Below, in pieces: positions 1,295 to 56,212 of a DNA stretch of 64,000 nucleotides (position 1 is the stretch's first letter; the number at the start of each line of letters is the position of its first letter). The notes below the pieces were generated by a model that saw only the letters and a list, made by a program, of their open reading frames with translations, was not told the DNA's origin and did not search any database. Made by a program: the position numbers and the translations under genes. The stretch is taken from the IMG/VR virus record IMGVR_UViG_3300042467_002204; one strand, 5' to 3'. Origin of the DNA: an uncultured virus (IMG/VR IMGVR_UViG_3300042467_002204). Its lineage: Duplodnaviria > Heunggongvirae > Uroviricota > Caudoviricetes.

Positions 1295-3823
1295 TCAGCG
1301 GGCTCTTGAGTAATTAAATGGTGACTCTGCCCAAGCGCAGTAAATGTATGTTTGGCCAGACTGGTTGCGCCCAGCAGTGGATGTTCTGATCTTGAATCCA
1401 TTACTAAGGATGTCCCAGCCGACACCTGCCGTGCTTGCTCCGCTCGAATCTTGATTTTCAGAAACGCTACTATTTGCGATTAGTTGAGTATCGCTAAGGT
1501 TGTATGTTGATCTGGCTGTGTCATGAATAATCCAGTCGTAACCTGAAGAGCCGCCAACCGAAGAAGACTTGACCATGATGTATCGCGGTCTAAACCCGGT
1601 ATACACAAAGGGACCATCCGAGCTGCCGTTGCCGGTGTAGCTGCCAAAGCTAGAGTACCCGACTACTGGGGCGAAGCAGTAGGCGACAAAGGTCGCAGAA
1701 GAACCGTTCACACCGCTCTCTGTTCCAAGTGAAAAAACTGTAGAAGACGGTGATGTAGTAAAAACAGTTCCCGCACCATCTGTGCGTTTTGCGCCAGTAT
1801 CAAACTGAAAATAATCACTTGCCCAATTAAAACCAGAGAAAGTAAATCCAATGACCCAGCCTCCTGTTGCACTACGCTTTTTCACGATCACCATGCTAGG
1901 AGCAACACCCAAACCATGCCCCACCGTGGCATTAGCACCCGTCCCCGTATAAGTAACAATCGAAAACCCCGCACTCGCATTAGCCCGCACCTGACTAGAG
2001 ATGGAGCCTGCTGTGTTGTTGGTGTCGGTGGAGCTTCCGGCGTCCCAGCACCAGGCCGCGTAGGTGGCTGAACTGGTGTTGAGTTTGGCAAGACTGCCGA
2101 TGGTGAAGGTGTTGGTGCCGAACGCTGTCAGACCAGTGCTTTGCGTTGTTTCTGCAGCGGTACTGTTGCTAGCAAGATCCTTCTGAACATCACGCACCGC
2201 GTCGTAGAGCGCATGATCAGTTGCCCCGGACCGACCTTTGATCCACACGAGGTCCGGCGTAAAAGCAATACTGGTTGGGGTGCTGCTGGCGTAGGGAAGC
2301 GTCAGGCTTGACCCAGTGCCGGTGTAAAGCACCACATCCATCACCGTCGAAGGCTTTGTGACTAATGGCGCGGGCAGGTTTGCCGTGCAGAGCGCTTTGT
2401 AGCCACCCGAAGGAGGAGAATAAGCAAACGGTCTTTGGCCGCAGTTCAGATAGCCAGAGTTGCTGTAAGCATTAACGACGAGGAACAGTTCAGCAGGCAG
2501 TGAGGTGAAGGTAGGATTTGAGCCGGTAGACGGATTGCCAGTTGTGCCACTAGACCCGTCACGCCAAGTATTGTTCTGTCCGGCCCAAGCACGATTATTT
2601 GCGGGGTCTACAGCAATCTGGATAATGTCTCCAGCAGCAAAAGACCCTGAGTAAGTATTGCCACCATCGTTACGGTTGATAATTATGGAACTGTAGCCGA
2701 AAAAATTCCACGAGTTAGACGCACTGCCCGCCACTGCATTTGTTGCGAGAGAAGCCGCACCCAAGCCAAAGCCAAGTCCAACCGATGAGTTAGTGGAGCT
2801 TCCGACAGTAAGTTCGGCGTACCAGAGTCCACTTGTCGGGATTGCAAAAGTGCTTTTGGCTAGACAATGGGCAGCACCCGCAGTGAAATCCAGATTGCCG
2901 TTTGAGAGTGTGCCGCCGTTGGTCAGCGGATTGAGAGTGCAGTAGTTGCCTCTTGTAGATCCGCCCGGATCGCCACCTGTGCTAGCGGTGCCATTAGTGG
3001 GAACGTCTGTCACTGAATCGTTTCCTGCACCAGCGGTGACCGACAGGTTGTTCGGCGTCCAGTTATTCGCCGGGGAGTTGCCACTAGTGTCCTTCCCTAA
3101 TGTGGTGGCGGTTGCTGCCGAGTTGTCCGCAAACTCCAGGTGGAAGCCGTTCACAGCCCCAGAGCCAACGTTGTAGCTGCCGGTGTATGCCTTGGGGATG
3201 AGCTGGCCGGTGGTGGCGTCGGTTTCGGTGAAGCTGCTGGGGGTTAGCGCTTGGCCGTCGATGAAATAGATGTCGGCTAAATAGCAGGTGCCTGCTGAAG
3301 ATGCACCAATGTAGGGGAAGTAGTTGATATTATGGGCCAAGGCCGTATTAACAAGCCCTTCAAAATTTTGCGTGGGATAATCGTACGCACCTTCTAGTAA
3401 TTCTGTTGAAATTAAACTTCCATTTACATAAAATTTCAATCGATCAGAAGCTGTAGCTGCCGTTGTGTCTTGAGCAATTACAACGTGCATCCAAGCAGAA
3501 AAATCTCTGAAAACTGCAATAGATTGCCTGCCATAGACGGCTGCACCACTAACTGCAACCCAGGAGAACTTATTCGTAGAACTAAATTGAATGTATGTAT
3601 AGTTTGGATAAGAATCTTGCCCAAATAAACGAATTGCTTGGTCTGGTGTCGACTTTTTGATCCACCCCGCCCAGGTCCAGGTCTTGCGGTTGCCTGCTGA
3701 TGCGGGAGTGCGGGACAAGTAGGCACTGTCACTACTATTGAATCTCAGACTCCTAGATATACCTCCAGCAGCTTCTTGCTGGGCATACGCTAATAAGAGC
3801 GGATTTTTAGAGAACAGACTCAT
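1295..3823 (-). CDS. tail fibre / receptor-binding protein, copy A (LamG/ConA-like, SPRY-like and C-terminal fibre domains)
   Basis: 842 aa S/G/T-rich; SRSLRFN..RKTWTWAGW, FIDGQALTP, GLWYAE, FTPDLVWIKGR, YCAWAESPF motifs typical of cyanophage fibre proteins. Confidence 0.8.
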   Translation of the reverse strand: MSLFSKNPLLLAYAQQEAAGGISRSLRFNSSDSAYLSRTPASAGNRKTWTWAGWIKKSTPDQAIRLFGQDSYPNYTYIQFSSTNKFSWVAVSGAAVYGRQSIAVFRDFSAWMHVVIAQDTTAATASDRLKFYVNGSLISTELLEGAYDYPTQNFEGLVNTALAHNINYFPYIGASSAGTCYLADIYFIDGQALTPSSFTETDATTGQLIPKAYTGSYNVGSGAVNGFHLEFADNSAATATTLGKDTSGNSPANNWTPNNLSVTAGAGNDSVTDVPTNGTASTGGDPGGSTRGNYCTLNPLTNGGTLSNGNLDFTAGAAHCLAKSTFAIPTSGLWYAELTVGSSTNSSVGLGFGLGAASLATNAVAGSASNSWNFFGYSSIIINRNDGGNTYSGSFAAGDIIQIAVDPANNRAWAGQNNTWRDGSSGTTGNPSTGSNPTFTSLPAELFLVVNAYSNSGYLNCGQRPFAYSPPSGGYKALCTANLPAPLVTKPSTVMDVVLYTGTGSSLTLPYASSTPTSIAFTPDLVWIKGRSGATDHALYDAVRDVQKDLASNSTAAETTQSTGLTAFGTNTFTIGSLAKLNTSSATYAAWCWDAGSSTDTNNTAGSISSQVRANASAGFSIVTYTGTGANATVGHGLGVAPSMVIVKKRSATGGWVIGFTFSGFNWASDYFQFDTGAKRTDGAGTVFTTSPSSTVFSLGTESGVNGSSATFVAYCFAPVVGYSSFGSYTGNGSSDGPFVYTGFRPRYIMVKSSSVGGSSGYDWIIHDTARSTYNLSDTQLIANSSVSENQDSSGASTAGVGWDILSNGFKIRTSTAGRNQSGQTYIYCAWAESPFNYSRAR

Positions 3824-3830
3824 CCCAGTC

Positions 3831-4652
3831 TTAAGCGATAGTGCCTGATCCGAAGTCTAGGAGAGCTGCTGCGTTGATTCGCGACGGATTAACAACGTAA
3901 TACAGCAGCGCATCCACGCCGCTGGCCGTCGTAGTCAAATCGGGTGCAATATTGCTGGGAAAGCGCCAACCGCCGCTATAAGTTAAAAGCCGAGATCCGA
4001 CGCTATCTTGGCGAAGAATAATGGTGCCGGTCTGACCGCCACTGGCGTTGGCGGGAGTAGCTAATGTCGAACTAGCCGCAGTTAAAACAACTTCAAAATT
4101 ATCGCGAGCACCGAATGCCAGCGTAATAACACCAGATCCCTGAATAACTCCGCTAGGGGAACCAATAGTCTGCGATTGAGCGACGACAGGACCCGAAATA
4201 GGACCGCCGGTTTTGTCATATTTATTTGCTACAGAACTGAGCGCTGCGTTACCTGATGCCTGGGCAGTAGCTGCAGATGAAAGAGCAGCATTACCGGAAG
4301 CAAGTGCAGCAGCAGAAGAAGTTAAAGCTGCGTTGCCGGAAGCAAGTGCAGTCGCCGACGAAACAAGAGCTGCGTTACCAGAAGCAAGTGCAGTGGAAGC
4401 TGATGCTAAAGCTGCATTTCCAGAAGCGATGGCAGATCCATCGATCCCGAGAGCATCGCCAACAAAAATAAGACCGCTAGCAGCCGGAGCAATCGAAGCG
4501 TTAACTGTGACCGTTCCGCCAGTTAAGGCGCCGCCACCGTCAAGGCCGCTTCCAGCAACGAGAGTACCGGCATTAGTCCCAACGACCGTATCGCCAGAAG
4601 GAAGTTCTGAAGTAACCCCACTAACTAGAACTAACGGTCGACGTGATGCCAT
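3831..4652 (-). CDS. tail fibre-associated protein with five 14-aa ASGNAAL repeats
   Basis: 273 aa; coiled-coil-like repeats and C-terminal RQD..GSR...WRF...PDLTT..VD motif; paralog of 8184-8912. Confidence 0.7.
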   Translation of the reverse strand: MASRRPLVLVSGVTSELPSGDTVVGTNAGTLVAGSGLDGGGALTGGTVTVNASIAPAASGLIFVGDALGIDGSAIASGNAALASASTALASGNAALVSSATALASGNAALTSSAAALASGNAALSSAATAQASGNAALSSVANKYDKTGGPISGPVVAQSQTIGSPSGVIQGSGVITLAFGARDNFEVVLTAASSTLATPANASGGQTGTIILRQDSVGSRLLTYSGGWRFPSNIAPDLTTTASGVDALLYYVVNPSRINAAALLDFGSGTIA

Positions 4653-5790: not shown

Positions 5791-8187
5791 TCAGCGGGCG
5801 CGGGCGTAGTTGAAGGGCGATTCGGCAAAGGCGGCGTAGATGTAGACACTGCCACTTGAGTTAAGCCCTCCAGATGTGCTTCTGATTTTGAAACCATTAC
5901 TGAGAACATCTAGGCTTGCGCCAAAAAATTCAGCATCTGCCAAGTTGGGATAAATCTGAGCGCCAGCAACGTTATAGGTATCTCTGGCGGTATCATAAAT
6001 AACCCAGACGTTGGTACCACTGCTGCTGTTCTTTAACAGTACCCACCTCGGGCGCATTCCCGTAAACACAAACGGCCCATCCGGGTTGCCGTCGCCGGTG
6101 TAGCTGCCGAAACTAGAGTATCCAACTACTGGGGCGAAGGCATACACAACAATCTTCTGATTTGACGCCGAAGCAATCGTTCCTTGGCGGATCCCGATGG
6201 TTGAGGAAGAAAAACTCCAGAGAGTCGAGCCACTTGTGGTTTTAGCTGCAGTGCTGTTTAGCTGCAAGTAGTCACTTGCGGGGTTTGAAAAATCAGACCT
6301 GGCCACGTACCAAGCGTCAGAAATGTCCCTGTTCTTTGCAATGAACATCACCGGGGACACATTCAGGCCGTGTCCGACGGTATCAAGAGATGATCCATTA
6401 CCGCCGGACGAGTATGTGATGATCGAGAACCCCGCCGTCGCGTTGGCCCTGACAGTGGAAGTTATGGAGCCTGCTGTGTTCGTGACGGTGGAGCTTCCGG
6501 CGTCCCAGGCCCAGGCGACATACGTTGAACTGCTTCCGTTGACCTCTGCGGTGTTGCCGACAGAAAACCCATTTGAATTAAAAGCCGTCAGTGTCTGAGC
6601 GTTGGTAGCCTCTGCGTTGGTGGAATTACTGAATAGTCGAGTTGTTGCTCCAACAATTGTATTAAACAGTGCGTTCCATTCACTCCCGCTACGTTGCTTC
6701 AGCCAGACAAGATCAGGGCTAAAACCGCCAGGCAATGTAATGCTTTGCGAGCTACCATTTCCGGTCCACAAAACTGTATCGAAAACCGTATTAGGCTTGA
6801 CGACTAATGGCGTTGTGAGGTTGGCCGTGCAGAGCGCCTTGAAGCCGCTGGGGGCCGTGTAGGCGAAGGCGCGTTGGCCGAAGTTCATGCTGGCCACGGA
6901 ACTTCCCGACGTGTAATCTCCTACTGCTGAATAAAAAGTTCCTGACAGTGACGAGAATGCTGTCCCTTGACTTGTGTTGTTTTTGTAAAAAACTAAGGTT
7001 CCTGCATCAAGATCAAGAGCTATCCCAATCACATCATTTGATGTGTAGGATGCGCCATAGGCAGTTGAAGAACCGTTGTTGTACTTGTTACCAGATTGCA
7101 AATATGCATAACCATCTGCGGTAGATCCAAGCTCGGCATTTGTTCCACCGATTTTCAAAACGCCCACTGAAATGCTAGTGGCTGTTGTAGGGGTTACCTC
7201 CCAGTACCATTTCCCAGAGCTAACAGCAATGGTGCCAACAGAAGTGGCGCTTCCGGTGGTTGATGTTGTTACATCCAGATTGCCATTGCTGAGTGTATTT
7301 CCAGAAACGAATAGGGGATTCAACGTCGCATAATTCCCCCTAACCTCACCCCCCACGCCCGTATCCGTCTGCGCCCCGTTAGTGGGCACATCTACGAGGC
7401 TGTCATTACCCGAACCAGCGGTGATACTTAAGTTATTCGGAGTCCAGTTGTTACCTAAATTGAAATTATCTTTACCTAAAGTTGTGGCTGTAGCAGCAGA
7501 GTTGTCGCTGAAAGGCAGCCAGAAGCTGTTACCCGTATAAGTACCGGTGTATGCCTTCGGGATGAGCTGGCCGGTGGTGGCGTCGGTTTCGGTGAAGCTG
7601 CTGGGGGTCAGCGCTTGGCCGTCGATGAAGTAGATGTCGGCTAGGTAGCCGTCGAAATAACGAGCAGAGAGTATAGATGCTCGTCCAATTTCATGCAGAG
7701 CCGCTTGATTAATGCCGTAGTCTTGGTTGCTGATGGACGCCCTATTGTCAATGCTGAAATCGGTAAGCTGGACGCTATTTACATACAGCTTAATCTTGTT
7801 TGCATTTGTTCCTTGTGTAGCATCAAAAGCCGCAACTATGTGATACCAAGCCGACACGTCCCTGTAGACAGAAGCGGAAACTAGGAAATTGCTAACAGCT
7901 CCAGCAACAGTCAACTTGTGATTATTGTCGATGTAGATACCCATAAAACCGGTATCGCTACTTGTAGTTCCACCGGTAAAAAGATTGACATCAAGTCCAG
8001 TCGATAGCGAAGCCCGCTTCACCCACCCCGCCCAGGTCCAGGTGCGGCGGTTGCCAGCAGATGCGGGGGTGCGGCTGAGATAGGCCGAATCGGCTGAGTT
8101 GAACCTCAGACTTCTACTAATACTGTATGCTCCGCCAGAAGCAGAAGCGGCTCCAAAAAACTCAGGAGTTGTATTTCCCGGAATCAT
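5791..8187 (-). CDS. tail fibre / receptor-binding protein, copy B
   Basis: 798 aa, colinear paralog of 1295-3823 with near-identical blocks and the same C-terminus (AESPFNY.RAR). Confidence 0.8.
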   Translation of the reverse strand: MIPGNTTPEFFGAASASGGAYSISRSLRFNSADSAYLSRTPASAGNRRTWTWAGWVKRASLSTGLDVNLFTGGTTSSDTGFMGIYIDNNHKLTVAGAVSNFLVSASVYRDVSAWYHIVAAFDATQGTNANKIKLYVNSVQLTDFSIDNRASISNQDYGINQAALHEIGRASILSARYFDGYLADIYFIDGQALTPSSFTETDATTGQLIPKAYTGTYTGNSFWLPFSDNSAATATTLGKDNFNLGNNWTPNNLSITAGSGNDSLVDVPTNGAQTDTGVGGEVRGNYATLNPLFVSGNTLSNGNLDVTTSTTGSATSVGTIAVSSGKWYWEVTPTTATSISVGVLKIGGTNAELGSTADGYAYLQSGNKYNNGSSTAYGASYTSNDVIGIALDLDAGTLVFYKNNTSQGTAFSSLSGTFYSAVGDYTSGSSVASMNFGQRAFAYTAPSGFKALCTANLTTPLVVKPNTVFDTVLWTGNGSSQSITLPGGFSPDLVWLKQRSGSEWNALFNTIVGATTRLFSNSTNAEATNAQTLTAFNSNGFSVGNTAEVNGSSSTYVAWAWDAGSSTVTNTAGSITSTVRANATAGFSIITYSSGGNGSSLDTVGHGLNVSPVMFIAKNRDISDAWYVARSDFSNPASDYLQLNSTAAKTTSGSTLWSFSSSTIGIRQGTIASASNQKIVVYAFAPVVGYSSFGSYTGDGNPDGPFVFTGMRPRWVLLKNSSSGTNVWVIYDTARDTYNVAGAQIYPNLADAEFFGASLDVLSNGFKIRSTSGGLNSSGSVYIYAAFAESPFNYARAR

Positions 8188-8912
8188 GAGACAGTTCCCG
8201 AACCGTAATTAGCGGAAAGAATGGCGCTTACACGATTAGGGTTGATCACATAATACGTAAGAATATCCACGCCGCTGGCCGTAGTCGTAAGGGTAGGCGC
8301 CGTATTTCCAGCAAAACTCCAAGAGCCGCTATATGTAACTAAACGACTTCCCGTGCCATCCTGACGAATCGCAATAGAACCACATTGACCACCACTGGCG
8401 TTTGTCGGAGACGCAAAAGTCGAATTATTAGTAAGAACAACCTCAAAATTATTACGAGTGCCGAAGTTAAAAATGCAGACACCCGACGAGTTGATAGCGC
8501 CAGTAGTGCCAAAAGACTGAGATTGGACAACAATGGGACCGGAAATTGGGCCACCCGTCTTGTCGTATTTATTAGCTAAAGAACTTAGAGCGGCATTGCC
8601 AGAAGCCTGAGCAGTAGAGCCGACAACTAAAGCTGCGTTACCTGAAGCTTGAGCTGTAGAGCCAACAACTAAAGCTGCGTTACCTGAAGCCTGAGCTGTG
8701 GCGGCGCTCGTTAAAGCGGAATTGCCAGAAGCAAGAGCTTGATTAGCGGTCGATTGAGCAGCGACACCGCTAGCAGCGAGCGTAAACCGAGCATCAAGAA
8801 CGCCAACTTCAACACGTTTATTTAGCGTCCCCGAAGCTTCAACGACAGGAAAGTAATCACCACTGGCTAACGTCGTGATCGCTGTAAATTGCGATATTTT
8901 CTGGCTAGCCAT
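8184..8912 (-). CDS. tail fibre-associated protein with four ASGN(A/S)AL repeats
   Basis: 242 aa; N-terminal KISQF motif; C-terminal domain paralogous to 3831-4652. Confidence 0.7.
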   Translation of the reverse strand: MASQKISQFTAITTLASGDYFPVVEASGTLNKRVEVGVLDARFTLAASGVAAQSTANQALASGNSALTSAATAQASGNAALVVGSTAQASGNAALVVGSTAQASGNAALSSLANKYDKTGGPISGPIVVQSQSFGTTGAINSSGVCIFNFGTRNNFEVVLTNNSTFASPTNASGGQCGSIAIRQDGTGSRLVTYSGSWSFAGNTAPTLTTTASGVDILTYYVINPNRVSAILSANYGSGTVS

Positions 8913-45985: not shown

Positions 45986-46068
45986 TGCCTCCGGCGGGAT
46001 TCGAACCCGCAAGCTTTTTAGGGCGGCGCATTTTAAGTGCGCTATGTCTTCCATTCCATCACAGAGGC
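45986..46068 (-). tRNA. tRNA-Leu(TAA)
   Basis: Cloverleaf with anticodon arm GCGCA-CTTAAAA-TGCGC, long variable arm, GTTCGAATC; CCA not encoded. Confidence 0.92.
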
Positions 46069-46072
46069 GATG

Positions 46073-46145
46073 TGCGCGTCGTGAGGATCGAACTCACCTT
46101 CGTCCGATTATGAGTCGGAAGCAGTCACCAGATTGCTAGACGCGC
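46073..46145 (-). tRNA. tRNA with CAT anticodon (elongator Met or Ile2)
   Basis: Acceptor GCGCGTC/GACGCGC, anticodon arm TCCGA-CTCATAA-TCGGA, GTTCGATC; 1-72 pair intact, so not initiator. Confidence 0.9.
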
Positions 46146-48419: not shown

Positions 48420-51400
48420 TTAACGTCCGAATAAAAGTTCGGATAAACCAAACTCGCCACGGCGGGGGTTAAACCGCTCTTTAACTAAATCGATACGTTT
48501 TTGAATTTCGTTTCGATTGTCCTGACGCGTTAGTTCTGACCGTTGAGATGACGTTAACGGTTTGAGTGTCGCAGTAAGCGGTTTTTCACCTGTTCGAGGT
48601 TGTGCTGTTGCACCTGTGCGAGGAGCCGTTCCAATAAACTGACGCAATTTTGGAACAATACCTTCACCCGTCTCTTGACGAACAACTTCATTTAAAGCAC
48701 GTGCACCGGCAGTACCAACAAGACCCGCACCGACTCCAGGAGTAAACAGTGCTGCCAACGGTGCTACCAGAGGAGTGGATAAAACACCAGCTGTTCCTGC
48801 TGTTATCGGTAAACTTTGTAAAAACTCTTGTCCTATTTGTCTACCCATGGCCACGGGTCCTCTAGCGTAACCGGTTTGAATTGCTTCAGGACTAGGAATA
48901 AGGTCAGCAGCACCGGGGAGAAGAGCAGAAGGAGTGCGGCGTAACGCACGTATAAGTTCTAATGCGCCAGGACCGGTACTTGCGACCGGATCTGTAGATA
49001 AATATCTCGGTGCGCCACTAAGGGGTAAAACGTCTTGATCAACCCTAAACTGTTCACCTGCCCGTGTAACCGTTCCCCTCAAAGCCGGTTCGGCTCTTTT
49101 TGGTTGAAGCGGTATTACGTTTCCTTGTAGATCCACATAAGCATATTGCGTTCTTGCGCTATCTACAGGACCAAAACCGGCAGACATATATGCAGCTCCG
49201 CGTAAATTCGGAAGGTTTTGATTTTTAGTTTTAAAAGGTATAAGTTTACGAACAGTGCTGCTTGTGTCAGCGGTCTCTCCTTCTTTAAGTCGTTCTTTTA
49301 AAAGATCATCTGAAGGCATAGGAGAGTTATACACTAGAGTTCCTGGACGTGTCTCAGCCATAGCACGATTGCGAATAAACTGTTCAAACTTATCTGTAAC
49401 TTCCTTAGGTAAATCTGTTGAAGCTATATAATTTGCCCAACCCTCATTAGGTTTGCGAGTATCAAAACTAATATCAGCTTTTCCTGTTACAGGATTATTA
49501 GCTAAAAACCTTAAAGTGTTTAATGAAATCTCGTCCGTAGAACCACTTAAAATATCGTTTATTCTTCTAACTAAAAATCCTTGAGGATTAGCGGGAGAAA
49601 CTTTAACTTCATAAGCGTCAGGGTCTCCAATTGCAGCAGGCATAACCTCTTTAGTATCTGGATTGAAACTAAAAGCTGCGTTTGTCGGTAAATTAGTCGA
49701 AGACCGCGCTAATCCAGGAAATTGTTGTTCCAATAAATTTGGACCAAGAACATCCAAAACTTGTTTATAAGCATCATTAAATTTTCGCGCTCGCTTATTA
49801 ATACGATCAGTGAGATTTCTTACTTCTTCTTCATATTCGGGTTCCGATCTAGAGGGATCATAAACGTTTACATACCCTCCGCCGCCCACGATGGGTCGTT
49901 GCGGACGAAAAGCATTTTGTTCAATTGCCCGTAATTCGTTTTCAAATCCTTGTGCACGAATTAAATCTCTAGCTAGCGCTTGAGATTTAGGATCTCCAGA
50001 ACTATATAAATCTTCAATTGGAGATAAAATATTAAGACCTACTTTTTTTAATTCAGGGTCACCATAACTCGACAATATTTTATTGTATAAAGCTGCACGA
50101 TCAGCAGGAGTGGATATGGTTTGTTCAGTATCTACGTATTGCATGTAGGGCTTAAACAGTTCCTGTTTAACCCTTTGCCGTGGATTTTGGTTTTCAACCC
50201 CATAAACAAGATCTTTAAGTTCAGGAAATTCCTGTAGAACTTGTTTAAAGTTTTCTAAACTTTCACTTCCGCGTTCAAGACGAGCGTCGTTAAAAACTCT
50301 AGAAAGATCTTCTTGAAGTCCCGGAATAATTCTTTGTCTACTTCTTGTGGGCATATCAAACGGCTCATCAAGTTGGACCTCTCTCAATGGAGTTTGTTGT
50401 ATATTCTCTAATGCTCTTTCAATTAATTCACGTTGTTCACCTGGACGCATTCTCGCTGCTGCTCTGTTTGCACGCTCAGCTAACCTCTGAGCAAACAATA
50501 AAGGATCAGCATCTGCATCACTAATAGGGGTATTTTGTCGAGTTCTAGATTCTTGATAAACCCGCCTAGCAGCGTTAATAGCTGCATCTTCACCAATCAC
50601 TCTACGAACAGATGGAAGTACATCAGAAGCATAATCTTGACCAGAATTAATTCTGCGAGCATAAGGTGATGTAGTGTCAAAAGTAGATAGATCTCTTTGA
50701 ATTTGATTAAGAATATTACGTTGATCTAACGCATCTTGAAGAGTAGCCGGAATCGTTTCTGATGGTACACGAGAACTTATCTCATCTAACCGATCATATA
50801 ACTGTGGAGTAAATAAAGGATCACTTTCACGTGAAATTTCATTAAAACGACGATCAATAGTATCTCTTATAGTATTACGTTCCGTTTCTAAATTAGAAGG
50901 CAAATCAGCAATAAGACGTAAACGATCTAAATCTTCCTCTGCTGCAGTAAAACCTTCGTAAATATCACGATCTAATCCTTCACTACGTCCACGGGTTCCT
51001 TCTCTTTCGACAAAATTTGCTGCTTCCCATTCAGAAAACCCCGGAGAATTGTCGTTTAAAACATCAGATCTAAATGATTCACGTAAAGAATCTAAATCAC
51101 GTCTATCTAATCGTCCAGTTATGACATCTTCATAAACGCGATCTGAGAGTTCAGGAGAAGTATCAGGGTTATTTTGTAAGTAGTTAATAAAAAACTGTCT
51201 CGCTTTTGGATCTTGACCAGCTAAGCGATAAGCATCGTACCTTTCATTATCGGGATCAACGTCAAGCTCGTTAAAAGGTATTTCGTCACGTAAATCTTCT
51301 ACTGTAAAAAAATTACGAGCTTGATCTGGATCTACATCTTCAACATAAATACGTTCCTGCTCAGCTATTTGTTCTGCAGCAAGATCATCAAGTTCACCTG

Positions 51401-51530
51401 CATCTCTAGCTCGATTGAATAAAGCGCGTCTAGCATCAGAAGAAAAATAAGGATATGTATAATCTTCTTCCTCTACAGCATCCGCTACCTTACGAATTAA
51501 TTCGGGCGAATAAAAATCAGGAACCGGCAC
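48420..51530 (-). CDS. large hypothetical protein, probable internal virion protein
   Basis: 1036 aa; acidic N-terminus, hydrophobic G/A-rich segment near the C-terminus. Confidence 0.75.
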   Translation of the reverse strand: MPVPDFYSPELIRKVADAVEEEDYTYPYFSSDARRALFNRARDAGELDDLAAEQIAEQERIYVEDVDPDQARNFFTVEDLRDEIPFNELDVDPDNERYDAYRLAGQDPKARQFFINYLQNNPDTSPELSDRVYEDVITGRLDRRDLDSLRESFRSDVLNDNSPGFSEWEAANFVEREGTRGRSEGLDRDIYEGFTAAEEDLDRLRLIADLPSNLETERNTIRDTIDRRFNEISRESDPLFTPQLYDRLDEISSRVPSETIPATLQDALDQRNILNQIQRDLSTFDTTSPYARRINSGQDYASDVLPSVRRVIGEDAAINAARRVYQESRTRQNTPISDADADPLLFAQRLAERANRAAARMRPGEQRELIERALENIQQTPLREVQLDEPFDMPTRSRQRIIPGLQEDLSRVFNDARLERGSESLENFKQVLQEFPELKDLVYGVENQNPRQRVKQELFKPYMQYVDTEQTISTPADRAALYNKILSSYGDPELKKVGLNILSPIEDLYSSGDPKSQALARDLIRAQGFENELRAIEQNAFRPQRPIVGGGGYVNVYDPSRSEPEYEEEVRNLTDRINKRARKFNDAYKQVLDVLGPNLLEQQFPGLARSSTNLPTNAAFSFNPDTKEVMPAAIGDPDAYEVKVSPANPQGFLVRRINDILSGSTDEISLNTLRFLANNPVTGKADISFDTRKPNEGWANYIASTDLPKEVTDKFEQFIRNRAMAETRPGTLVYNSPMPSDDLLKERLKEGETADTSSTVRKLIPFKTKNQNLPNLRGAAYMSAGFGPVDSARTQYAYVDLQGNVIPLQPKRAEPALRGTVTRAGEQFRVDQDVLPLSGAPRYLSTDPVASTGPGALELIRALRRTPSALLPGAADLIPSPEAIQTGYARGPVAMGRQIGQEFLQSLPITAGTAGVLSTPLVAPLAALFTPGVGAGLVGTAGARALNEVVRQETGEGIVPKLRQFIGTAPRTGATAQPRTGEKPLTATLKPLTSSQRSELTRQDNRNEIQKRIDLVKERFNPRRGEFGLSELLFGR

Positions 51531-52555: not shown

Positions 52556-52714
52556 TTAATAACCGCCCGAAATTTGACGCATTTTCTTGATGGCTTCTTC
52601 TGTCGCTCGATTACGTTCTTGTAGCTTGTCGGCTACACTCTGCGCTTCTTGCACAAACCCACCGGGATTAACCAGCGCGCCGATGTATTTACGTAAAAAA
52701 GTGAGCGGGTCCAC
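52556..52714 (-). CDS. small hypothetical protein, 52 aa
   Basis: Hand-translated GTG-start MDPLTFLRKYIGALVNPGGFVQEAQ... Confidence 0.45.
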   Translation of the reverse strand: MDPLTFLRKYIGALVNPGGFVQEAQSVADKLQERNRATEEAIKKMRQISGGY

Positions 52715-52926
52715 GGCGCTGCATGACGGTCTGAACTAAGTCTATCAAGTGAGCGCCGAAAGTTTGTGCTCCTATAGTGCTACCCAAAAAATTTTTTACC
52801 TAGTTTGCCAGCAAAATTAATTTATTGTTCTCGCCGCCCCCGTCGTCGAAAGTCTATATATAAAAAAAAGGGCAAATTGCGGGCAGATTTCTTTACACAT
52901 TGCGGGTCGCTAAGTATAACGAACCT

Positions 52927-53009
52927 CGCGTGCGCGTATGTGCGTGCGCGTGCGTATGCGTGTGCGCGTGTGTGCTCGCGTGTGTGCGCGGGCGTGCGCG
53001 TATGTGTGT
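52927..53009. repeat. alternating purine-pyrimidine (CG/TG) tract
   Basis: CGCGTGCGCGTATGTGCGTGCGCGTGCGTATGCGTGTGCGCGTGTGTG... Confidence 0.9.
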
Positions 53010-53079
53010 TTCATTTTACCTAAACACAGCCCGTGTACTACTGTGTACTATGGACAATTAGCTAAGTGTCCCAACCCCC

Positions 53080-53109
53080 TTGACCTTTGCTGCTCCCCTG
53101 GGCCATGCT
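53080..53109 (+). promoter_or_regulatory. sigma70-type promoter opening the early region
   Basis: TTGACC-18nt-CATGCT, preceded by the GGACA..TGTCC inverted repeat. Confidence 0.55.
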
Positions 53110-53114
53110 GTGCA

Positions 53115-53745
53115 CATCGATCGGAACCCGGTCGACGCACCTAGACAATTCGAGACCGCAAGGGAAGTAGGGTCAAGCCGTGAGGCGCCGAAACGAACTG
53201 CGGGTCAGATATATAAAGACTTCAGAATGGAAGCGCAACGTTCCCGAACACAAGTAGGGCGCCGCAAGGTTGGATAAACGCCGACTCCCATTCTCTCCAG
53301 ACTCGTAGTGTGTGCCACTACGACGGCGCACACAATGTAACTATTGGCGCTAAACATTAATCACACTCGCCAAGTGATAACTGAATACATAAGTTGCACA
53401 TTCAGTTAGTTACAGTTCACAGATAACTTGTCAGGTTGCACCTTAGTTGTGTGTCCTGATTCTTATCTTTGTATGATTCTCACGATGTCGTTTTACATTC
53501 GATGGCGAATCATACAGTTCTAGATGAGATTCATTCTGTGATCTGTAACTAACTAGGTGCTAACTTTTATGTTTTACTTGTCTCCCGGTAGTTAACTTTA
53601 CAGGGGGAGCATGTAACACCTAGATGATTAACTTGTCCGATCACAGTTTGATCTTGTTAGGATCATTCTTGATCACAGTGATTCTCTCCCTCTGACTTCT
53701 TGTCAGACTGAGGGATTCATTCCCTCATTGTTGTCAGCTGCCAGC
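53115..53745 (+). ncRNA. large structured non-coding RNA or leader
   Basis: No credible ORF; GNRA-capped hairpins, AGUA/GAA motif, 19/20 stem 53404-53423:53535-53554, further nested stems. Confidence 0.6.
53117..53150 (+). promoter_or_regulatory. boxB-boxA-like antitermination site
   Basis: Hairpin TCGATCGG/CCGGTCGA followed by GCACCTAGACAATT, resembling cyanobacterial rrn boxA. Confidence 0.55.
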
Positions 53746-53764
53746 TCTATTGCTGGTGAATGTT

Positions 53765-54073
53765 ATGAACCTCAAAACTAATCATCAACCACGCGAGTTA
53801 AAGTATCTGTCTGACTTTAACTCTGCAGATCAACATAAGATCCGATCACAATACGATTGGATGGATAAAGATAATCTTGAATGTAACTACGGATTCTTTA
53901 AGTACCGTGGTTGTTTTTATCATCTTCAAGACTTTCTTCGTGTAGCTAATGAATCAACCGGTGATCTTGTCGGTTGGGATGGTTACTCAAGTGATTCATT
54001 CTTTAGTGGTGTTGTTATCAAGTTAGTTGATAATGACTGCGATTCTGTTATTGTCGGACGCTATTGCTGCTGA
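53765..54073 (+). CDS. early hypothetical protein
   Basis: FFKYRG.FY.L.DF.R...WDGY.SDSFFSG..IK. Confidence 0.7.
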   Translation: MNLKTNHQPRELKYLSDFNSADQHKIRSQYDWMDKDNLECNYGFFKYRGCFYHLQDFLRVANESTGDLVGWDGYSSDSFFSGVVIKLVDNDCDSVIVGRYCC

Positions 54074-54120
54074 TTAGTCTCACCTAAGTCAACACATTCC
54101 CACAATCATTTGCAATCATC

Positions 54121-54375: not shown

Positions 54376-54395
54376 TAACTCTAACTAACATCATC

Positions 54396-55263: not shown

Positions 55264-55806
55264 ATGAAACATGTAACTAAGACAACGCGAGCATCCAAGG
55301 ATGGTAAGTTTATTTATTGTCCTAAGTGTGGAGCTGTAGCTAGAGTGTTTCACTTTAGTTGGAGCGCATTAGGTTGCTGCAGCTGCAATGAAATGATCCC
55401 TAAGTATGATTGGCTTTTAGAAGATCCGTGTATCCCACGGGGTGAGAATCGTATGGTGTTTTCTTTAGTGTTTGACAGAAACTATACAGACTTTGTGTTT
55501 AAGTTCAACGAGAAATATTTACATGAGCACGGATATTATCTCGATGAAGTAGACGCATCAGGTAGCAGAACTGTATGGTGCTGTTTACCATTGGGTTCCT
55601 CTAATTATGAGGACGCTATAGATTTTCCTCAATGGATGTATGACGACTTCAGACAGTGGTTACTCATGCGACACAGAATGAAAGAGGATGACTTCTCAAT
55701 CTGTAGAAGAATGCCTGATCCCGGATTAGGGATCATGCTACCTGAAGACTTTGAACTTCTAAAGAAAGGTGGCACGCCGGATGGTTGTATCCGTGTAACT
55801 ACTTAA
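55264..55806 (+). CDS. early Zn-ribbon hypothetical protein
   Basis: CPKC....VFHFSWSAL.C.SC. Confidence 0.65.
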   Translation: MKHVTKTTRASKDGKFIYCPKCGAVARVFHFSWSALGCCSCNEMIPKYDWLLEDPCIPRGENRMVFSLVFDRNYTDFVFKFNEKYLHEHGYYLDEVDASGSRTVWCCLPLGSSNYEDAIDFPQWMYDDFRQWLLMRHRMKEDDFSICRRMPDPGLGIMLPEDFELLKKGGTPDGCIRVTT

Positions 55807-55850
55807 CACACAAACACACAAACACACAAACACACAAACACACTCACACA
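55805..55850. repeat. (AACACACA)n tandem repeat, about 5 copies
   Basis: Directly visible, intergenic. Confidence 0.9.
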
Positions 55851-55858
55851 TTAACATC

Positions 55859-56212
55859 ATGAGACTCATTGAACGCAAGATGATCGCTGCTATCTATGAA
55901 CGTAAGGATTGGAAGTGTGACAACACGCGTGTTATCTGCACGCAGTTTGTACACTCTGATCACATCATTGATCGCGTGTCTGTTATTCTCCACGGCTCAA
56001 CAATCGCAATCATCACACCGACAGACGTAGATGTATCCGACTGCGGATACCAAACACCCACAACAAAGTCCAGACTAAATGCAATCTTGCGCGAGTTCTG
56101 TGGCGCTGGTATTTATCAGAAGAACCATAAGTGGTTCGCATGTGCTGAGGGTGAGAAAGATTGGGAGGTACGTAAAGGATCGCGGCAGTTGTTTTATAGG
56201 GGGGAAGGATAA
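55859..56212 (+). CDS. conserved cyanophage-type early protein
   Basis: MR.IE..M..AI....W...NT.V..LHG..IA...TTKSRLNAIL. Confidence 0.7.
   Translation: MRLIERKMIAAIYERKDWKCDNTRVICTQFVHSDHIIDRVSVILHGSTIAIITPTDVDVSDCGYQTPTTKSRLNAILREFCGAGIYQKNHKWFACAEGEKDWEVRKGSRQLFYRGEG

What the first reader, a model, noticed from the sequence alone, without database searches (positions are those of the whole stretch)
53115..53745. About 630 nt of densely structured non-coding RNA at the head of the early region
Seen: directly after a TTGACC/CATGCT promoter there is no credible ORF until 53765. Two tandem modules share AAGUAGGG...CC-GNRA-GG...CGCCGA (53165-53190 and 53252-53284). The first has a loop-E-like AGUA/GAA pairing; the second is closed by AGAAUGG/CCAUUCU. 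A large multibranch domain is closed by a 19/20 stem (53404-53423 with 53535-53554) and contains TGTATGATTC/GAATCATACA. Further stems follow, including CTAGGTG/CACCTAG and CCCTC-TGAC/GTCA-GAGGG. I do not recognise an RNA family. Inference: a new large phage ncRNA or an antitermination/decoy leader, likely among the first transcripts made.
Basis: partly seen in the sequence, partly recalled or inferred. Interest (0 to 1): 0.72.

Follow-up and report, generated by a model that had tools for sequence, protein, structure and literature searches.

The report
Folded cyanophage early leader RNA
The gene-free stretch is a real, conserved and heavily folded RNA of about 620 bases that heads the early genes of an uncultured freshwater cyanobacterial virus; it matches no catalogued RNA family and begins with a near-copy of the signal its host uses to keep RNA polymerase running through ribosomal RNA genes.

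Summary
Window 53116-53734 (+) has no conserved ORF and folds better than shuffles (z -6.6).

About 60 metagenomic phage contigs carry a homologous element. A conserved TTGAC promoter sits upstream of it.

Covariation is strong in three separately tested parts:
- Core three-way junction: 38 of 57 pairs compensatory, 85% paired against 28-38% for slid partners.
- Two 5' modules: 32 of 36 pairs compensatory, with a GNRA loop in 33 of 35 rows.
- A pseudoknot: 98% paired on an alignment made by sequence alone.

G.U pairs outnumber A.C 205:55 and 155:59, so the + strand is the one that folds. No Rfam family matches.

The transcript starts with a hairpin followed by GCACCUAGACAA. That is one base from the rrn-leader boxA that I found in two cyanobacterial genomes.

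It ends in two mutually exclusive hairpins, one of them terminator-like.

Best reading: a Nus/boxA-type antitermination leader of the early operon, fused to a large folded RNA whose own role is unknown. Transcription has not been demonstrated. The closest cultured phage, S-EIV1, lacks the element.

The parts
53080..53109 (+). Promoter: -35 TTGACC (53080-53085), 18-nt spacer, -10-like CATGCT (53104-53109)
   Evidence: Read from the sequence. A TTGAC-N17-20-NANNNT candidate lies upstream in 47 of 53 unique relatives; the other 6 hold less than 380 nt of upstream sequence. The consensus scan did not list it.
53117..53135 (+). 5'-terminal hairpin H1 (UCGAUCGG-AAC-CCGGUCGA), boxB-like in its position
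   Evidence: Single-sequence folds put a hairpin 6-8 nt after the -10 in 33 of 34 distinct relatives, with different stem sequences.
53137..53148 (+). boxA-like word GCACCUAGACAA
   Evidence: It is 11 of 12 identical to GAACCUAGACAA, which I found in the rrn leaders of two cyanobacterial genomes 162-177 nt before 16S. It is 9 of 12 identical to the ITS boxA GAACCUUGAAAA (passage of PMC8461337). Relatives carry exact copies at the same offset.
53154..53206 (+). Module 1: closing stem GACCGC/GCGGGUC, AGUAGG strand, GNRA hairpin GCC-GUGA-GGC (53177-53186), CGAAAC strand
   Evidence: Model R2 alignment: closing helix 90.7% paired with 6 of 6 pairs compensatory. The loop is GNRA in 33 of 35 distinct rows.
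53224..53294 (+). Module 2: closing stem AGAAUGGAAG/CUCCCAUUCU, inner hairpins, AAGUAGGG, CC-GCAA-GG
   Evidence: Inverted repeat I15, 90% complementary. In the family the closing helices are 87% paired with 12 of 12 pairs compensatory. The model aligned the window's own closing stem a few bases out of register.
53310..53333 (+). Hairpin GUGUGUGCC...GGCGCACAC, specific to the window's clade; other clades have a hairpin with a GUAACUA loop here
   Evidence: Single-sequence fold and alignment A5. Not tested for covariation.
53346..53378 (+). Interleaved helices S1 (53346-53349 with 53368-53371) and S2 (53360-53364 with 53374-53378): an H-type pseudoknot, or two alternative hairpins
   Evidence: On a sequence-only MAFFT alignment S1 is 98.2% paired (GC:22, AU:20 at one pair) and S2 is 98.6% paired (AU:21, CG:18, GU:3 at one pair).
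53398..53560 (+). Core three-way-junction domain: closing helix P1 (53404-53423 with 53535-53554), hairpin P2, long hairpin P3 with conserved CAC...CGAUGGC
   Evidence: The same architecture appears in 22 of 22 single-sequence folds. Model R1 hits at 77-158 bits in 56 of 56 sources. 85.3% paired and 38 of 57 pairs compensatory.
53553..53623 (+). Domain closed by CUAGGUG/CACCUAG, containing hairpin D1 (CUCCC 53582-53586 with GGGGGAG 53603-53609)
   Evidence: Inverted repeat I7 and single-sequence folds of 21 relatives. Covariation not counted.
53639..53674 (+). Four GAUC words at 53639, 53650, 53661 and 53671 (spacing 11, 11, 10)
   Evidence: Positions. Three GATC words are invariant alignment columns in 50 relatives, spaced 11 and 10. 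The flanks do not covary, so these are conserved as sequence.
53680..53715 (+). X-Y hairpin: GAUUCUCUCCCUC (X), inner hairpin CUGAC/GUCAG, GAGGGA (Y); antiterminator-like
   Evidence: Folds in 46 of 46 distinct relatives, mean -16.4 kcal/mol.
53710..53734 (+). Y-X' hairpin GAGGGA-UUCAU-UCCCUC followed by AUUGUUGU; terminator-like and mutually exclusive with X-Y
   Evidence: Listed by the terminator scan. Folds in 46 of 46 relatives, mean -9.6 kcal/mol; the tail is U-rich in 31 of 46. The two states differ by 0.3 +/- 2.0 kcal/mol.
53735..53767 (+). Short leader of the first early ORF: CCAGC/GCUGG hairpin, GGUGA, ATG 53765
   Evidence: Identical between the window and L004 although the RNA upstream is only about 50% identical. 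A different first gene follows the element in 16 of 43 relatives.

Best explanation
The stretch is the roughly 620-nt untranslated leader (about 53116 to 53734, + strand) of the phage's early operon. I infer that host RNA polymerase makes it from the conserved TTGACC/CATGCT promoter.

The RNA opens with a terminal hairpin and then GCACCUAGACAA, a near-copy of the cyanobacterial rrn-leader boxA. I infer that NusB-NusE and the other Nus factors assemble there on the polymerase, as they do on rrn operons and at lambda nut sites. The polymerase would then run through terminators across the long early region.

Four covariation-supported folded parts follow:
- two GNRA-capped modules;
- a pseudoknot;
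- a three-way-junction domain closed by a nearly invariant helix of about 22 bp;
- a hairpin/GAUC region.

The RNA ends in two mutually exclusive hairpins that share GAGGGA, one of them terminator-like. I read this as a gate in front of the first early gene.

Shown here: the fold, its conservation, the folded strand, the single copy per genome, and the identity of the boxA word.

Inferred: transcription, Nus binding and the gate. The role of the roughly 500 nt of folded domains remains unexplained.
For: - The promoter is conserved in relatives, and a hairpin begins 6-8 nt after the -10 in 33 of 34.
- The distance of the boxA-like word from GAACCUUGAAAA is 0, 1 or 2 in 21 of 42 elements and 3 in 17 more, at a fixed offset of 19-34 nt. 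Sites with at most 2 mismatches number 51 on the sense strand and 3 on the antisense strand.
- GAACCUAGACAA, the commonest form in the family, is the word in the rrn leaders of two cyanobacterial genomes, between a TTGACA promoter and 16S.
- Covariation is strong in the core, the 5' modules and the pseudoknot.
- G.U outnumbers A.C 205:55 and 155:59.
- Model R2 hits the sense strand only.
- Both 3' hairpins fold in 46 of 46 relatives.
- The first gene differs in 16 of 43 relatives while the RNA stays, so the RNA belongs to the head of the operon and not to one gene.
- There is one copy in each of 4 complete 80-87 kb genomes.
- No ORF is conserved across the element.
Against: - The window's own word has C at position 2, and the host's boxA is not known.
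- boxA accounts for 12 of about 620 nt.
- No transcript start or end is shown. RNA-library contigs cover 53137-53553 but also cover the promoter and upstream DNA (52900-53221), so they may be DNA carry-over.
- The terminator-like hairpin lacks a U-rich tail in 15 of 46 relatives. The near-equal energy of the two states follows largely from X and X' being the same word.
- The near-invariance of helix P1 and of the GAUC words points to sequence-specific recognition that this model does not explain.
- S-EIV1, the nearest cultured phage, has no match.
Confidence: 0.5

Rival explanations
1. A free-standing early ncRNA. The RNA would be released by termination at the Y-X' hairpin, or by cleavage of the long P1 helix, and would then act in trans as a scaffold, decoy or antisense regulator. 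For the antisense option, its unique AGUUAGUUACAG strand would pair with CUGUAACUAAC words in early messages.
For: - Its size and multi-domain fold, with GNRA loops and a pseudoknot, are like those of large stand-alone RNAs.
- The tail is terminator-like in 31 of 46 relatives.
- The word of the P1 3' arm recurs about 25 nt before early-gene start codons in roughly 21 of 44 relatives, nearly always on the sense strand: 58 seven-letter matches outside the elements, few of them reversed.
- One RNA-library contig spans 53137-53553 and ends at the end of P1.
Against: - 15 of 46 relatives have no U-rich tail.
- The X-Y hairpin is the more stable and forms first.
- The intergenic word is nearly absent from 4 complete genomes that carry the element. 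In the window only one degenerate copy lies before an early-gene start, at 54379.
- Contig ends say nothing about RNA ends.
Confidence: 0.22
2. A transcription-activated replication origin. The folded transcript would serve as a primer precursor in the manner of ColE1 RNA II, with the GATC cluster and the alternating purine-pyrimidine tract acting as DNA-level origin features.
For: - The element lies at the point where the leftward structural genes and the rightward early genes diverge.
- It is a long folded transcript with alternative 3' conformations.
- Three or four GATC words sit at helical-turn spacing and are conserved as sequence.
- An alternating tract of up to 49 nt lies about 70-160 nt upstream.
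Against: - Cumulative GC skew shows no turn near 53 kb.
- GATC is not unusual in the window as a whole: 298 seen against 246 expected.
- The alternating tract is long in only some lineages.
- The boxA word and the 5' hairpin are not explained.
Confidence: 0.07
3. A DNA-level element only, such as operators, a packaging site or single-strand DNA hairpins, in which RNA folding plays no part.
For: - The 12-bp arm words and the GATC words are nearly invariant rather than covarying.
- The reverse strand also folds better than shuffles.
Against: - Compensatory changes occur in 38 of 57, 32 of 36 and 8 of 15 pairs.
- The G.U excess is strand-specific.
- A GNRA loop is kept in 33 of 35 rows.
- The helices are interleaved.
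- The structure begins exactly behind a conserved promoter.
- In a genome with terminal repeats the element lies 7 kb from the ends.
Confidence: 0.03

Closest known systems
Bacterial rrn operon leader (boxB-boxA-boxC, Nus-factor antitermination complex) and the cyanobacterial 16S-23S spacer boxB-boxA-D4
   Same: - A hairpin followed by a 12-nt boxA word shortly after a TTGAC-type promoter.
- The family's commonest word equals the rrn-leader word of two cyanobacteria.
- A long helix (P1) encloses a folded domain, much as the leader-trailer helix encloses 16S (abstract of PMC10250234, seen in the listing).
   Different: - No rRNA follows.
- The window's word differs at one base.
- About 500 nt of unrelated folded domains follow the word.
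- Nus binding is untested.
Lambda nutL/nutR and HK022 putL/putR early-leader antitermination RNAs
   Same: A cis-acting RNA signal placed directly behind the early promoters of a phage. nut contains boxA (abstracts of PMC2800207 and PMC2724277, seen in the listing). What I say about put is recalled.
   Different: Those signals are about 20-70 nt. This element is about 620-1100 nt. No N-like protein is known here. Sequence similarity beyond boxA was not tested.
Large phage-associated 'ornate' RNAs (GOLLD, ROOL) and other large bacterial ncRNAs (OLE, HEARO, raiA)
   Same: Hundreds of nucleotides long, multi-domain, heavily covarying, found through metagenomes, function unknown (abstract of bioRxiv 10.1101/2024.12.08.627333, seen in the listing).
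   Different: None of the 4227 Rfam models scored the element or 8 relatives at the thresholds used, E up to 10 for the window stretch and up to 1 for the relatives. That these families are in that library, and that they sit near tRNA genes, is recalled. This element sits at the head of an early operon behind a promoter.
Terminator/antiterminator attenuators and riboswitch expression platforms
   Same: Three strands in which the middle one can pair with either neighbour. The downstream hairpin is followed by a U-rich run in the window and in 31 of 46 relatives.
   Different: No sensor or ligand is known. A third of the relatives lack the U run. The upstream partner is the more stable.
Candidate structured RNAs predicted from IMG/VR (Fremin et al. 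2023, PMC10690425)
   Same: The same data source, and unnamed covarying motifs in phage intergenic regions (passages read).
   Different: Those motifs average 67 nt. The arm words were not found in the 6 supplementary files that could be searched; files 1, 2 and 4 could not be searched. A sub-motif may therefore be listed there.

Membership tests
boxA / Nus-factor antitermination signal (rrn-type, nut-type) | A boxA word matching the host's rrn boxA | tested here: inconclusive
   The window has GCACCUAGACAA. That is 11 of 12 against the rrn-leader word GAACCUAGACAA of two cyanobacteria and 9 of 12 against the ITS boxA. Relatives carry exact copies of both forms. The host of this phage, and so its boxA, is not known.
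boxA / Nus-factor antitermination signal (rrn-type, nut-type) | Promoter-proximal position on the transcribed strand | tested here: met
   The offset from the inferred start is 19-34 nt in 41 of 42 elements. Sites number 51 on the sense strand and 3 on the antisense strand. The start itself is inferred from the promoter.
boxA / Nus-factor antitermination signal (rrn-type, nut-type) | An adjacent hairpin (boxB) | tested here: met
   A hairpin lies directly 5' of the word in 33 of 34 distinct relatives. Likeness to any known boxB was not tested.
boxA / Nus-factor antitermination signal (rrn-type, nut-type) | Binding by NusB-NusE and terminator read-through | not testable with these tools
   Needs binding and reporter assays.
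Any Rfam 15 family (4227 models; I recall that these include GOLLD, ROOL, OLE, HEARO, raiA, riboswitches, introns and RNase P) | A covariance-model match | tested here: not met
   No match in 53115-53745 at gathering scores or at E up to 10. In 8 relatives only noise on a GT/GC tract.
Intrinsic-terminator attenuator | Mutually exclusive antiterminator and terminator hairpins | tested here: met
   Both fold in 46 of 46 distinct relatives and share GAGGGA.
Intrinsic-terminator attenuator | A U-rich tract after the terminator stem | tested here: inconclusive
   The window has 5 U in 8. The tail is U-rich in 31 of 46 relatives and not in 15.
RNase III processing helix (leader-trailer type) | About two turns of nearly perfect duplex | tested here: met
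   P1 is 20 nt at 95% complementarity, plus three flanking pairs of which two show compensatory changes. Cleavage is not testable here.
Protein-coding gene | A conserved open frame | tested here: not met
   The longest + strand ORF inside the elements has a median of 43 aa. tblastn finds only 10-28-residue matches, in several frames and on both strands, over the DNA-conserved islands.

The most novel reading that the evidence does not exclude
The element is a new class of large, autonomously folding phage RNA, 0.6-1.1 kb with at least five covarying domains. It imitates the layout of a ribosomal RNA operon: a promoter, a boxB-like hairpin, boxA, and a leader-trailer-like helix that encloses a folded core. 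On this reading it captures the host's rRNA transcription and processing machinery at the first moment of infection. The core, once released from the invariant helix, would then act on its own, for example as a scaffold that multimerises through its palindromic GAUC words, or as a decoy.
Probability: 0.25. Interest if true: 0.85.

Novelty: new variant of a known kind. Interest (0 to 1): 0.75.

Why it matters
- RNAs longer than 500 nt with covariation support across many domains are rare. Each new one has opened questions about what RNA can do without protein.
- This one sits at the first position transcribed by a group of uncultured freshwater cyanophages. It joins a host rRNA antitermination word to a large fold of unknown role.
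- If the boxA reading is right, these phages take over the host's rRNA transcription machinery without an N-like protein, and the idea can be tested with a simple reporter.
- My five literature searches found no paper that describes this.
- Three earlier reports of this scan describe similar leaders in other cyanophages, so the theme may be general.

Tried and rejected
- A blind scan for covarying column pairs on plain MAFFT alignments gave mostly noise, because MAFFT misaligns the helices that vary. I replaced it with single-sequence folds and covariance-model alignments.
Only 6 of the 80 loci held carried the core, two of them new.
- blastn of 52700-54100 against 50,697 phage records found no match.
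- The exact-arm pattern gave 0 matches in 185,579 prokaryote species genomes.
- Models R1 and R2 found nothing in Synechococcus phage S-EIV1, 79 kb searched in full. R1 also found nothing in 10 loci that encode distant relatives of the first ORF.
- RNA libraries: four runs laid as contigs. Parts of the stretch without cover (53563-53920 in all four) say nothing, and cover of the promoter and upstream DNA means DNA carry-over cannot be excluded.
- The nearest held record ends at window 53020, inside the GT/GC tract, so it could not be used.
- I considered that the P1 3'-arm word is a general early-gene signal. It recurs before early genes in about half of the relatives, but not in four complete genomes and hardly in the window.
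- Coding potential was rejected.
- Look-ups of earlier findings by place and by sequence returned nothing.
- The supplement search of PMC10690425 had no hit in 6 files; 3 files were not searched.

Full report
**What is in the window**

The window is a tailed phage.
- From 1 to 52518 nearly all genes run leftward. They include tail-fibre-like proteins, a lysin, the major head protein, a portal-like protein and the large terminase.
- From ATG 53765 small genes of unknown function run rightward.
- The terminase is 52% identical to that of Synechococcus phage S-EIV1, the best hit among 50,697 phage records.
- The finding lies in the gap where the two gene arms diverge.

**The observation**

No ORF longer than 72 aa lies between 52518 and 53750.

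The + strand folds to -220.1 kcal/mol against -170.2 +/- 7.5 for 20 shuffles (z -6.62). The reverse strand gives z -5.62, so energy alone does not say which strand matters.

Rfam gives nothing:
- At gathering scores, only two tRNAs at 45986-46145.
- At E up to 10 on 52700-54000, eight weak matches. All lie on the GT/GC tract at 52901-53072 or at 53767-53792.

**Relatives**

- The protein of the first ORF found 13 viral loci. Only the closest of them shared the upstream DNA.
- Two conserved words found more. All shared the same arm-to-arm spacing of 137-142 nt.
- A gapped pattern of the two arm words then found 18 viral and 52 metagenome loci.
- After orienting the loci and removing duplicates, 53 distinct sequences remained. 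They fall into 23 clusters at 80% identity. Most are only 42-58% identical to the window over the region.
- The same pattern has no match in one genome each of 185,579 prokaryote species.

**The core domain**

Folded one at a time, 22 of 22 diverse relatives give the same three-way junction:
- a long closing helix P1;
- a hairpin P2;
- a long hairpin P3 with conserved CAC and CGAUGGC.

RNAalifold on the plain MAFFT alignment already shows compensatory changes in 12 of 30 pairs.

A covariance model (R1) finds the sense strand in 56 of 56 sources at 77-158 bits. The antisense strand scores 22-47 bits, owing to the palindromic arms.

On the model's alignment (46 distinct rows):

| Measure | Observed | Partners slid | Shuffles |
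|---|---|---|---|
| Cells paired | 85.3% | 28-38% | 73% |
| Covariation score | 0.373 | 0.056-0.122 | 0.160 (0 of 500 reach the observed value) |
| Pairs with a compensatory change | 38 of 57 | | |

That alignment is fitted to the structure, which favours it. The slid controls and the unfitted result limit this concern.

G.U plus U.G cells number 205, against 55 for A.C plus C.A. The + strand is therefore the folded one.

**The pseudoknot**

On a sequence-only alignment of 51 relatives, two interleaved helices are each about 98% paired and carry clean swaps:
- S1, window 53346-53349 with 53368-53371: GC:22 against AU:20 at one pair.
- S2, window 53360-53364 with 53374-53378: AU:21, CG:18, GU:3 at one pair.

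They form an H-type pseudoknot if both exist at once. I cannot exclude that they alternate.

**The 5' modules**

A second model (R2) covers window 53139-53315. It hits 43 of 58 sources, all on the sense strand.
- 85.4% of cells pair, against 33-41% when partners are slid.
- 32 of 36 pairs carry compensatory changes.
- The covariation score is 0.462 against 0.179 for shuffles.
- The hairpin at 53177-53186 has a GNRA loop in 33 of 35 distinct rows (GCGA 19, GUGA 9, GUAA 3, GAAA 1, GCAA 1), with stems that change.
- G.U to A.C is 155 to 59.

The AGUA/GAA 'loop E' remains a resemblance.

**Start of the RNA**

TTGAC, followed 17-20 nt later by a -10-like hexamer, stands upstream in 47 of 53 relatives. 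The other six hold too little upstream sequence.

A hairpin begins 6-8 nt after that hexamer in 33 of 34 distinct relatives, with quite different stem sequences. In the window it is 53117-53135.

Directly after it comes a conserved single-stranded word, GCACCUAGACAA at 53137-53148.

**boxA**

I had noted this word only as conserved. Three earlier reports of this scan describe cyanophage early leaders with a copy of the host's rrn boxA, and I tested that lead here.

- A passage of PMC8461337 gives the cyanobacterial spacer boxA as GAACCTTGAAAA and D4 as CTGCATA.
- In four of five cyanobacterial genomes a second word, GAACCTAGACAA or GAACCTAGAAAA, lies 1.8-2.1 kb upstream of each spacer boxA on the same strand.
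- In the two genomes I fetched, it sits between a TTGACA promoter and the 16S gene, 162 and 177 nt before 16S.
- GAACCUAGACAA is the commonest form in the phage family. Exact spacer-type copies also occur.
- Over 42 elements the distance to GAACCUUGAAAA is 0 in 1, 1 in 9, 2 in 11, 3 in 17, 4 in 3 and 6 in 1.
- The offset is 19-34 nt in 41 of the 42.
- Close matches number 51 on the sense strand and 3 on the antisense strand.
- The window's copy differs from the rrn-leader form at one base.
- Most relatives carry a second copy about 150 nt further on, behind an extra domain that the window's clade lacks.

**End of the RNA**

GAUUCUCUCCCUC (X), an inner hairpin, GAGGGA (Y) and UCCCUC (X') follow one another at 53680-53726. 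Y can pair with X or with X'.
- Both hairpins fold in 46 of 46 distinct relatives. X-Y averages -16.4 and Y-X' -9.6 kcal/mol.
- With the whole 3' region folded around them, the two states differ by 0.3 +/- 2.0 kcal/mol. This largely follows from X and X' being the same word.
- The most divergent lineage (L104) has changed all three strands and keeps both hairpins.
- A U-rich tail follows X' in the window and in 31 of 46 relatives. The other 15 have none.
- U-poor tails go with other downstream genes in the relatives where I compared them.
- The element ends here: a relative 95% identical up to 53726 is unrelated beyond it.
- The first gene belongs to the window's family in 27 of 43 relatives and to other small-gene families in the other 16.

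**Features conserved as sequence, not as pairs**

- The 12-bp arm words of P1 are fixed in all members found with them, which is partly ascertainment. Two members found by an independent pattern still have them nearly unchanged: one has U-A changed to U.G; the other has a matching insertion on both sides and one mismatch.
- Three GATC words are invariant columns spaced 11 and 10 nt apart. The window has a fourth.
- I have no tested explanation for either feature.

**Copy number and range**

- One place matches per genome in four complete records of 79.7-87.5 kb. In the record with terminal repeats it lies 7 kb from the ends.
- S-EIV1 has no match to R1 or R2 anywhere in its 79 kb. Its corresponding intergenic region looks different.

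**Expression**

- DNA runs from lake water hold the stretch in full.
- Four RNA libraries, available only as contigs, hold parts of it. One contig of 417 nt covers 53137-53553 with 16 differences.
- Others cover 52995-53221, 53031-53202 and 52900-53080, that is, the promoter and upstream DNA.
- This shows presence in RNA libraries. It shows neither transcription nor ends.

**Reading**

The evidence shows a conserved, strand-specific, multi-domain RNA fold that begins behind a conserved promoter. It carries a host-type boxA word at its start and a two-state hairpin at its end.

I therefore read it as an rrn-like, Nus-dependent antitermination leader of the early operon with a gate before the first gene (confidence 0.5).

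The folded bulk is unexplained. It could make this a free RNA with a function of its own (0.22). An origin primer (0.07) and a purely DNA-level element (0.03) are less likely.

**Novelty**

- No Rfam family matches.
- Searches for S-EIV1, for candidate structured RNAs in phages, for cyanophage noncoding RNA, and for cyanophage with boxA listed no paper that describes it (listings and abstracts only).
- The IMG/VR survey of PMC10690425 reports motifs averaging 67 nt (passages). A part of this element may be among them; three of its supplementary files could not be searched.

Noticed in passing
window 52921-53012: A GT/GC tract with a perfect purine-pyrimidine alternation of 49 nt lies about 70-160 nt upstream of the promoter. 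Several relatives have a tract of 34-66 nt at the same place; others have only 10-20 nt. The nearest held record ends inside it (window 53020), and RNA-library contigs break there with many loose ends. It is Z-DNA-prone by composition. Its role is unknown.
   Followed up: partly
window 55803-55856: An (AACACACA)n tract forms the leader of the gene at 55859-56212, which matches Pfam Kyano_Gp96. The early genes here lack a Shine-Dalgarno sequence, have C/A-rich leaders, and often start ...AUC AUG AAC.
   Followed up: partly
relatives, e.g. L045, L044, L053, L070, 590-1020 nt after the 5' arm: In about 21 of 44 relatives the word CTGTAACTAAC, identical to the 3' arm of helix P1, follows the stop codon of an early gene and lies about 25 nt before the next ATG, always on the sense strand. 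It carries stop codons in all three frames. It is nearly absent from four complete genomes that have the element, and the window has only CTCTAACTAAC at 54379.
   Followed up: partly
window 53727-53767 and L004 2960-3003: The 40-nt leader of the first ORF is identical in lineages whose upstream RNA is only about 50% identical and whose protein is 65% identical. This suggests exchange of gene cassettes behind the element, or a strong constraint on that leader.
   Followed up: no
L117 (IMGVR_UViG_3300034062_004332): A divergent member carries two copies of the X...Y pattern about 500 nt apart. It matches both models (R1 44 bits, R2 102.5 bits).
   Followed up: no
window 52794-52886: A block 76% identical to relatives, containing an A8 run and GGGCAAATTGCGGGCAG, lies between the leftward genes and the GT/GC tract. 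It may be a signal of the leftward operon.
   Followed up: no
KJ410740.1 54080-56620: The S-EIV1 terminase gene spans 2.5 kb and matches the window's 506-aa terminase in two pieces. It therefore carries an insertion of about 1 kb that the window's gene lacks.
   Followed up: no
window 48420-51530 (-): A 1036-aa acidic, low-complexity protein with a glycine-rich C-terminal part has no Pfam or PHROG match. Its gene lies about 1.5 kb to the left of the element.
   Followed up: no
window 1295-3823 and 5791-8187 (-), 4243-4427, 8602-8699: Two paralogous genes resemble tail-fibre or virion-structural proteins. Each is followed by a smaller paralogous gene that carries 42-nt tandem repeats.
   Followed up: no
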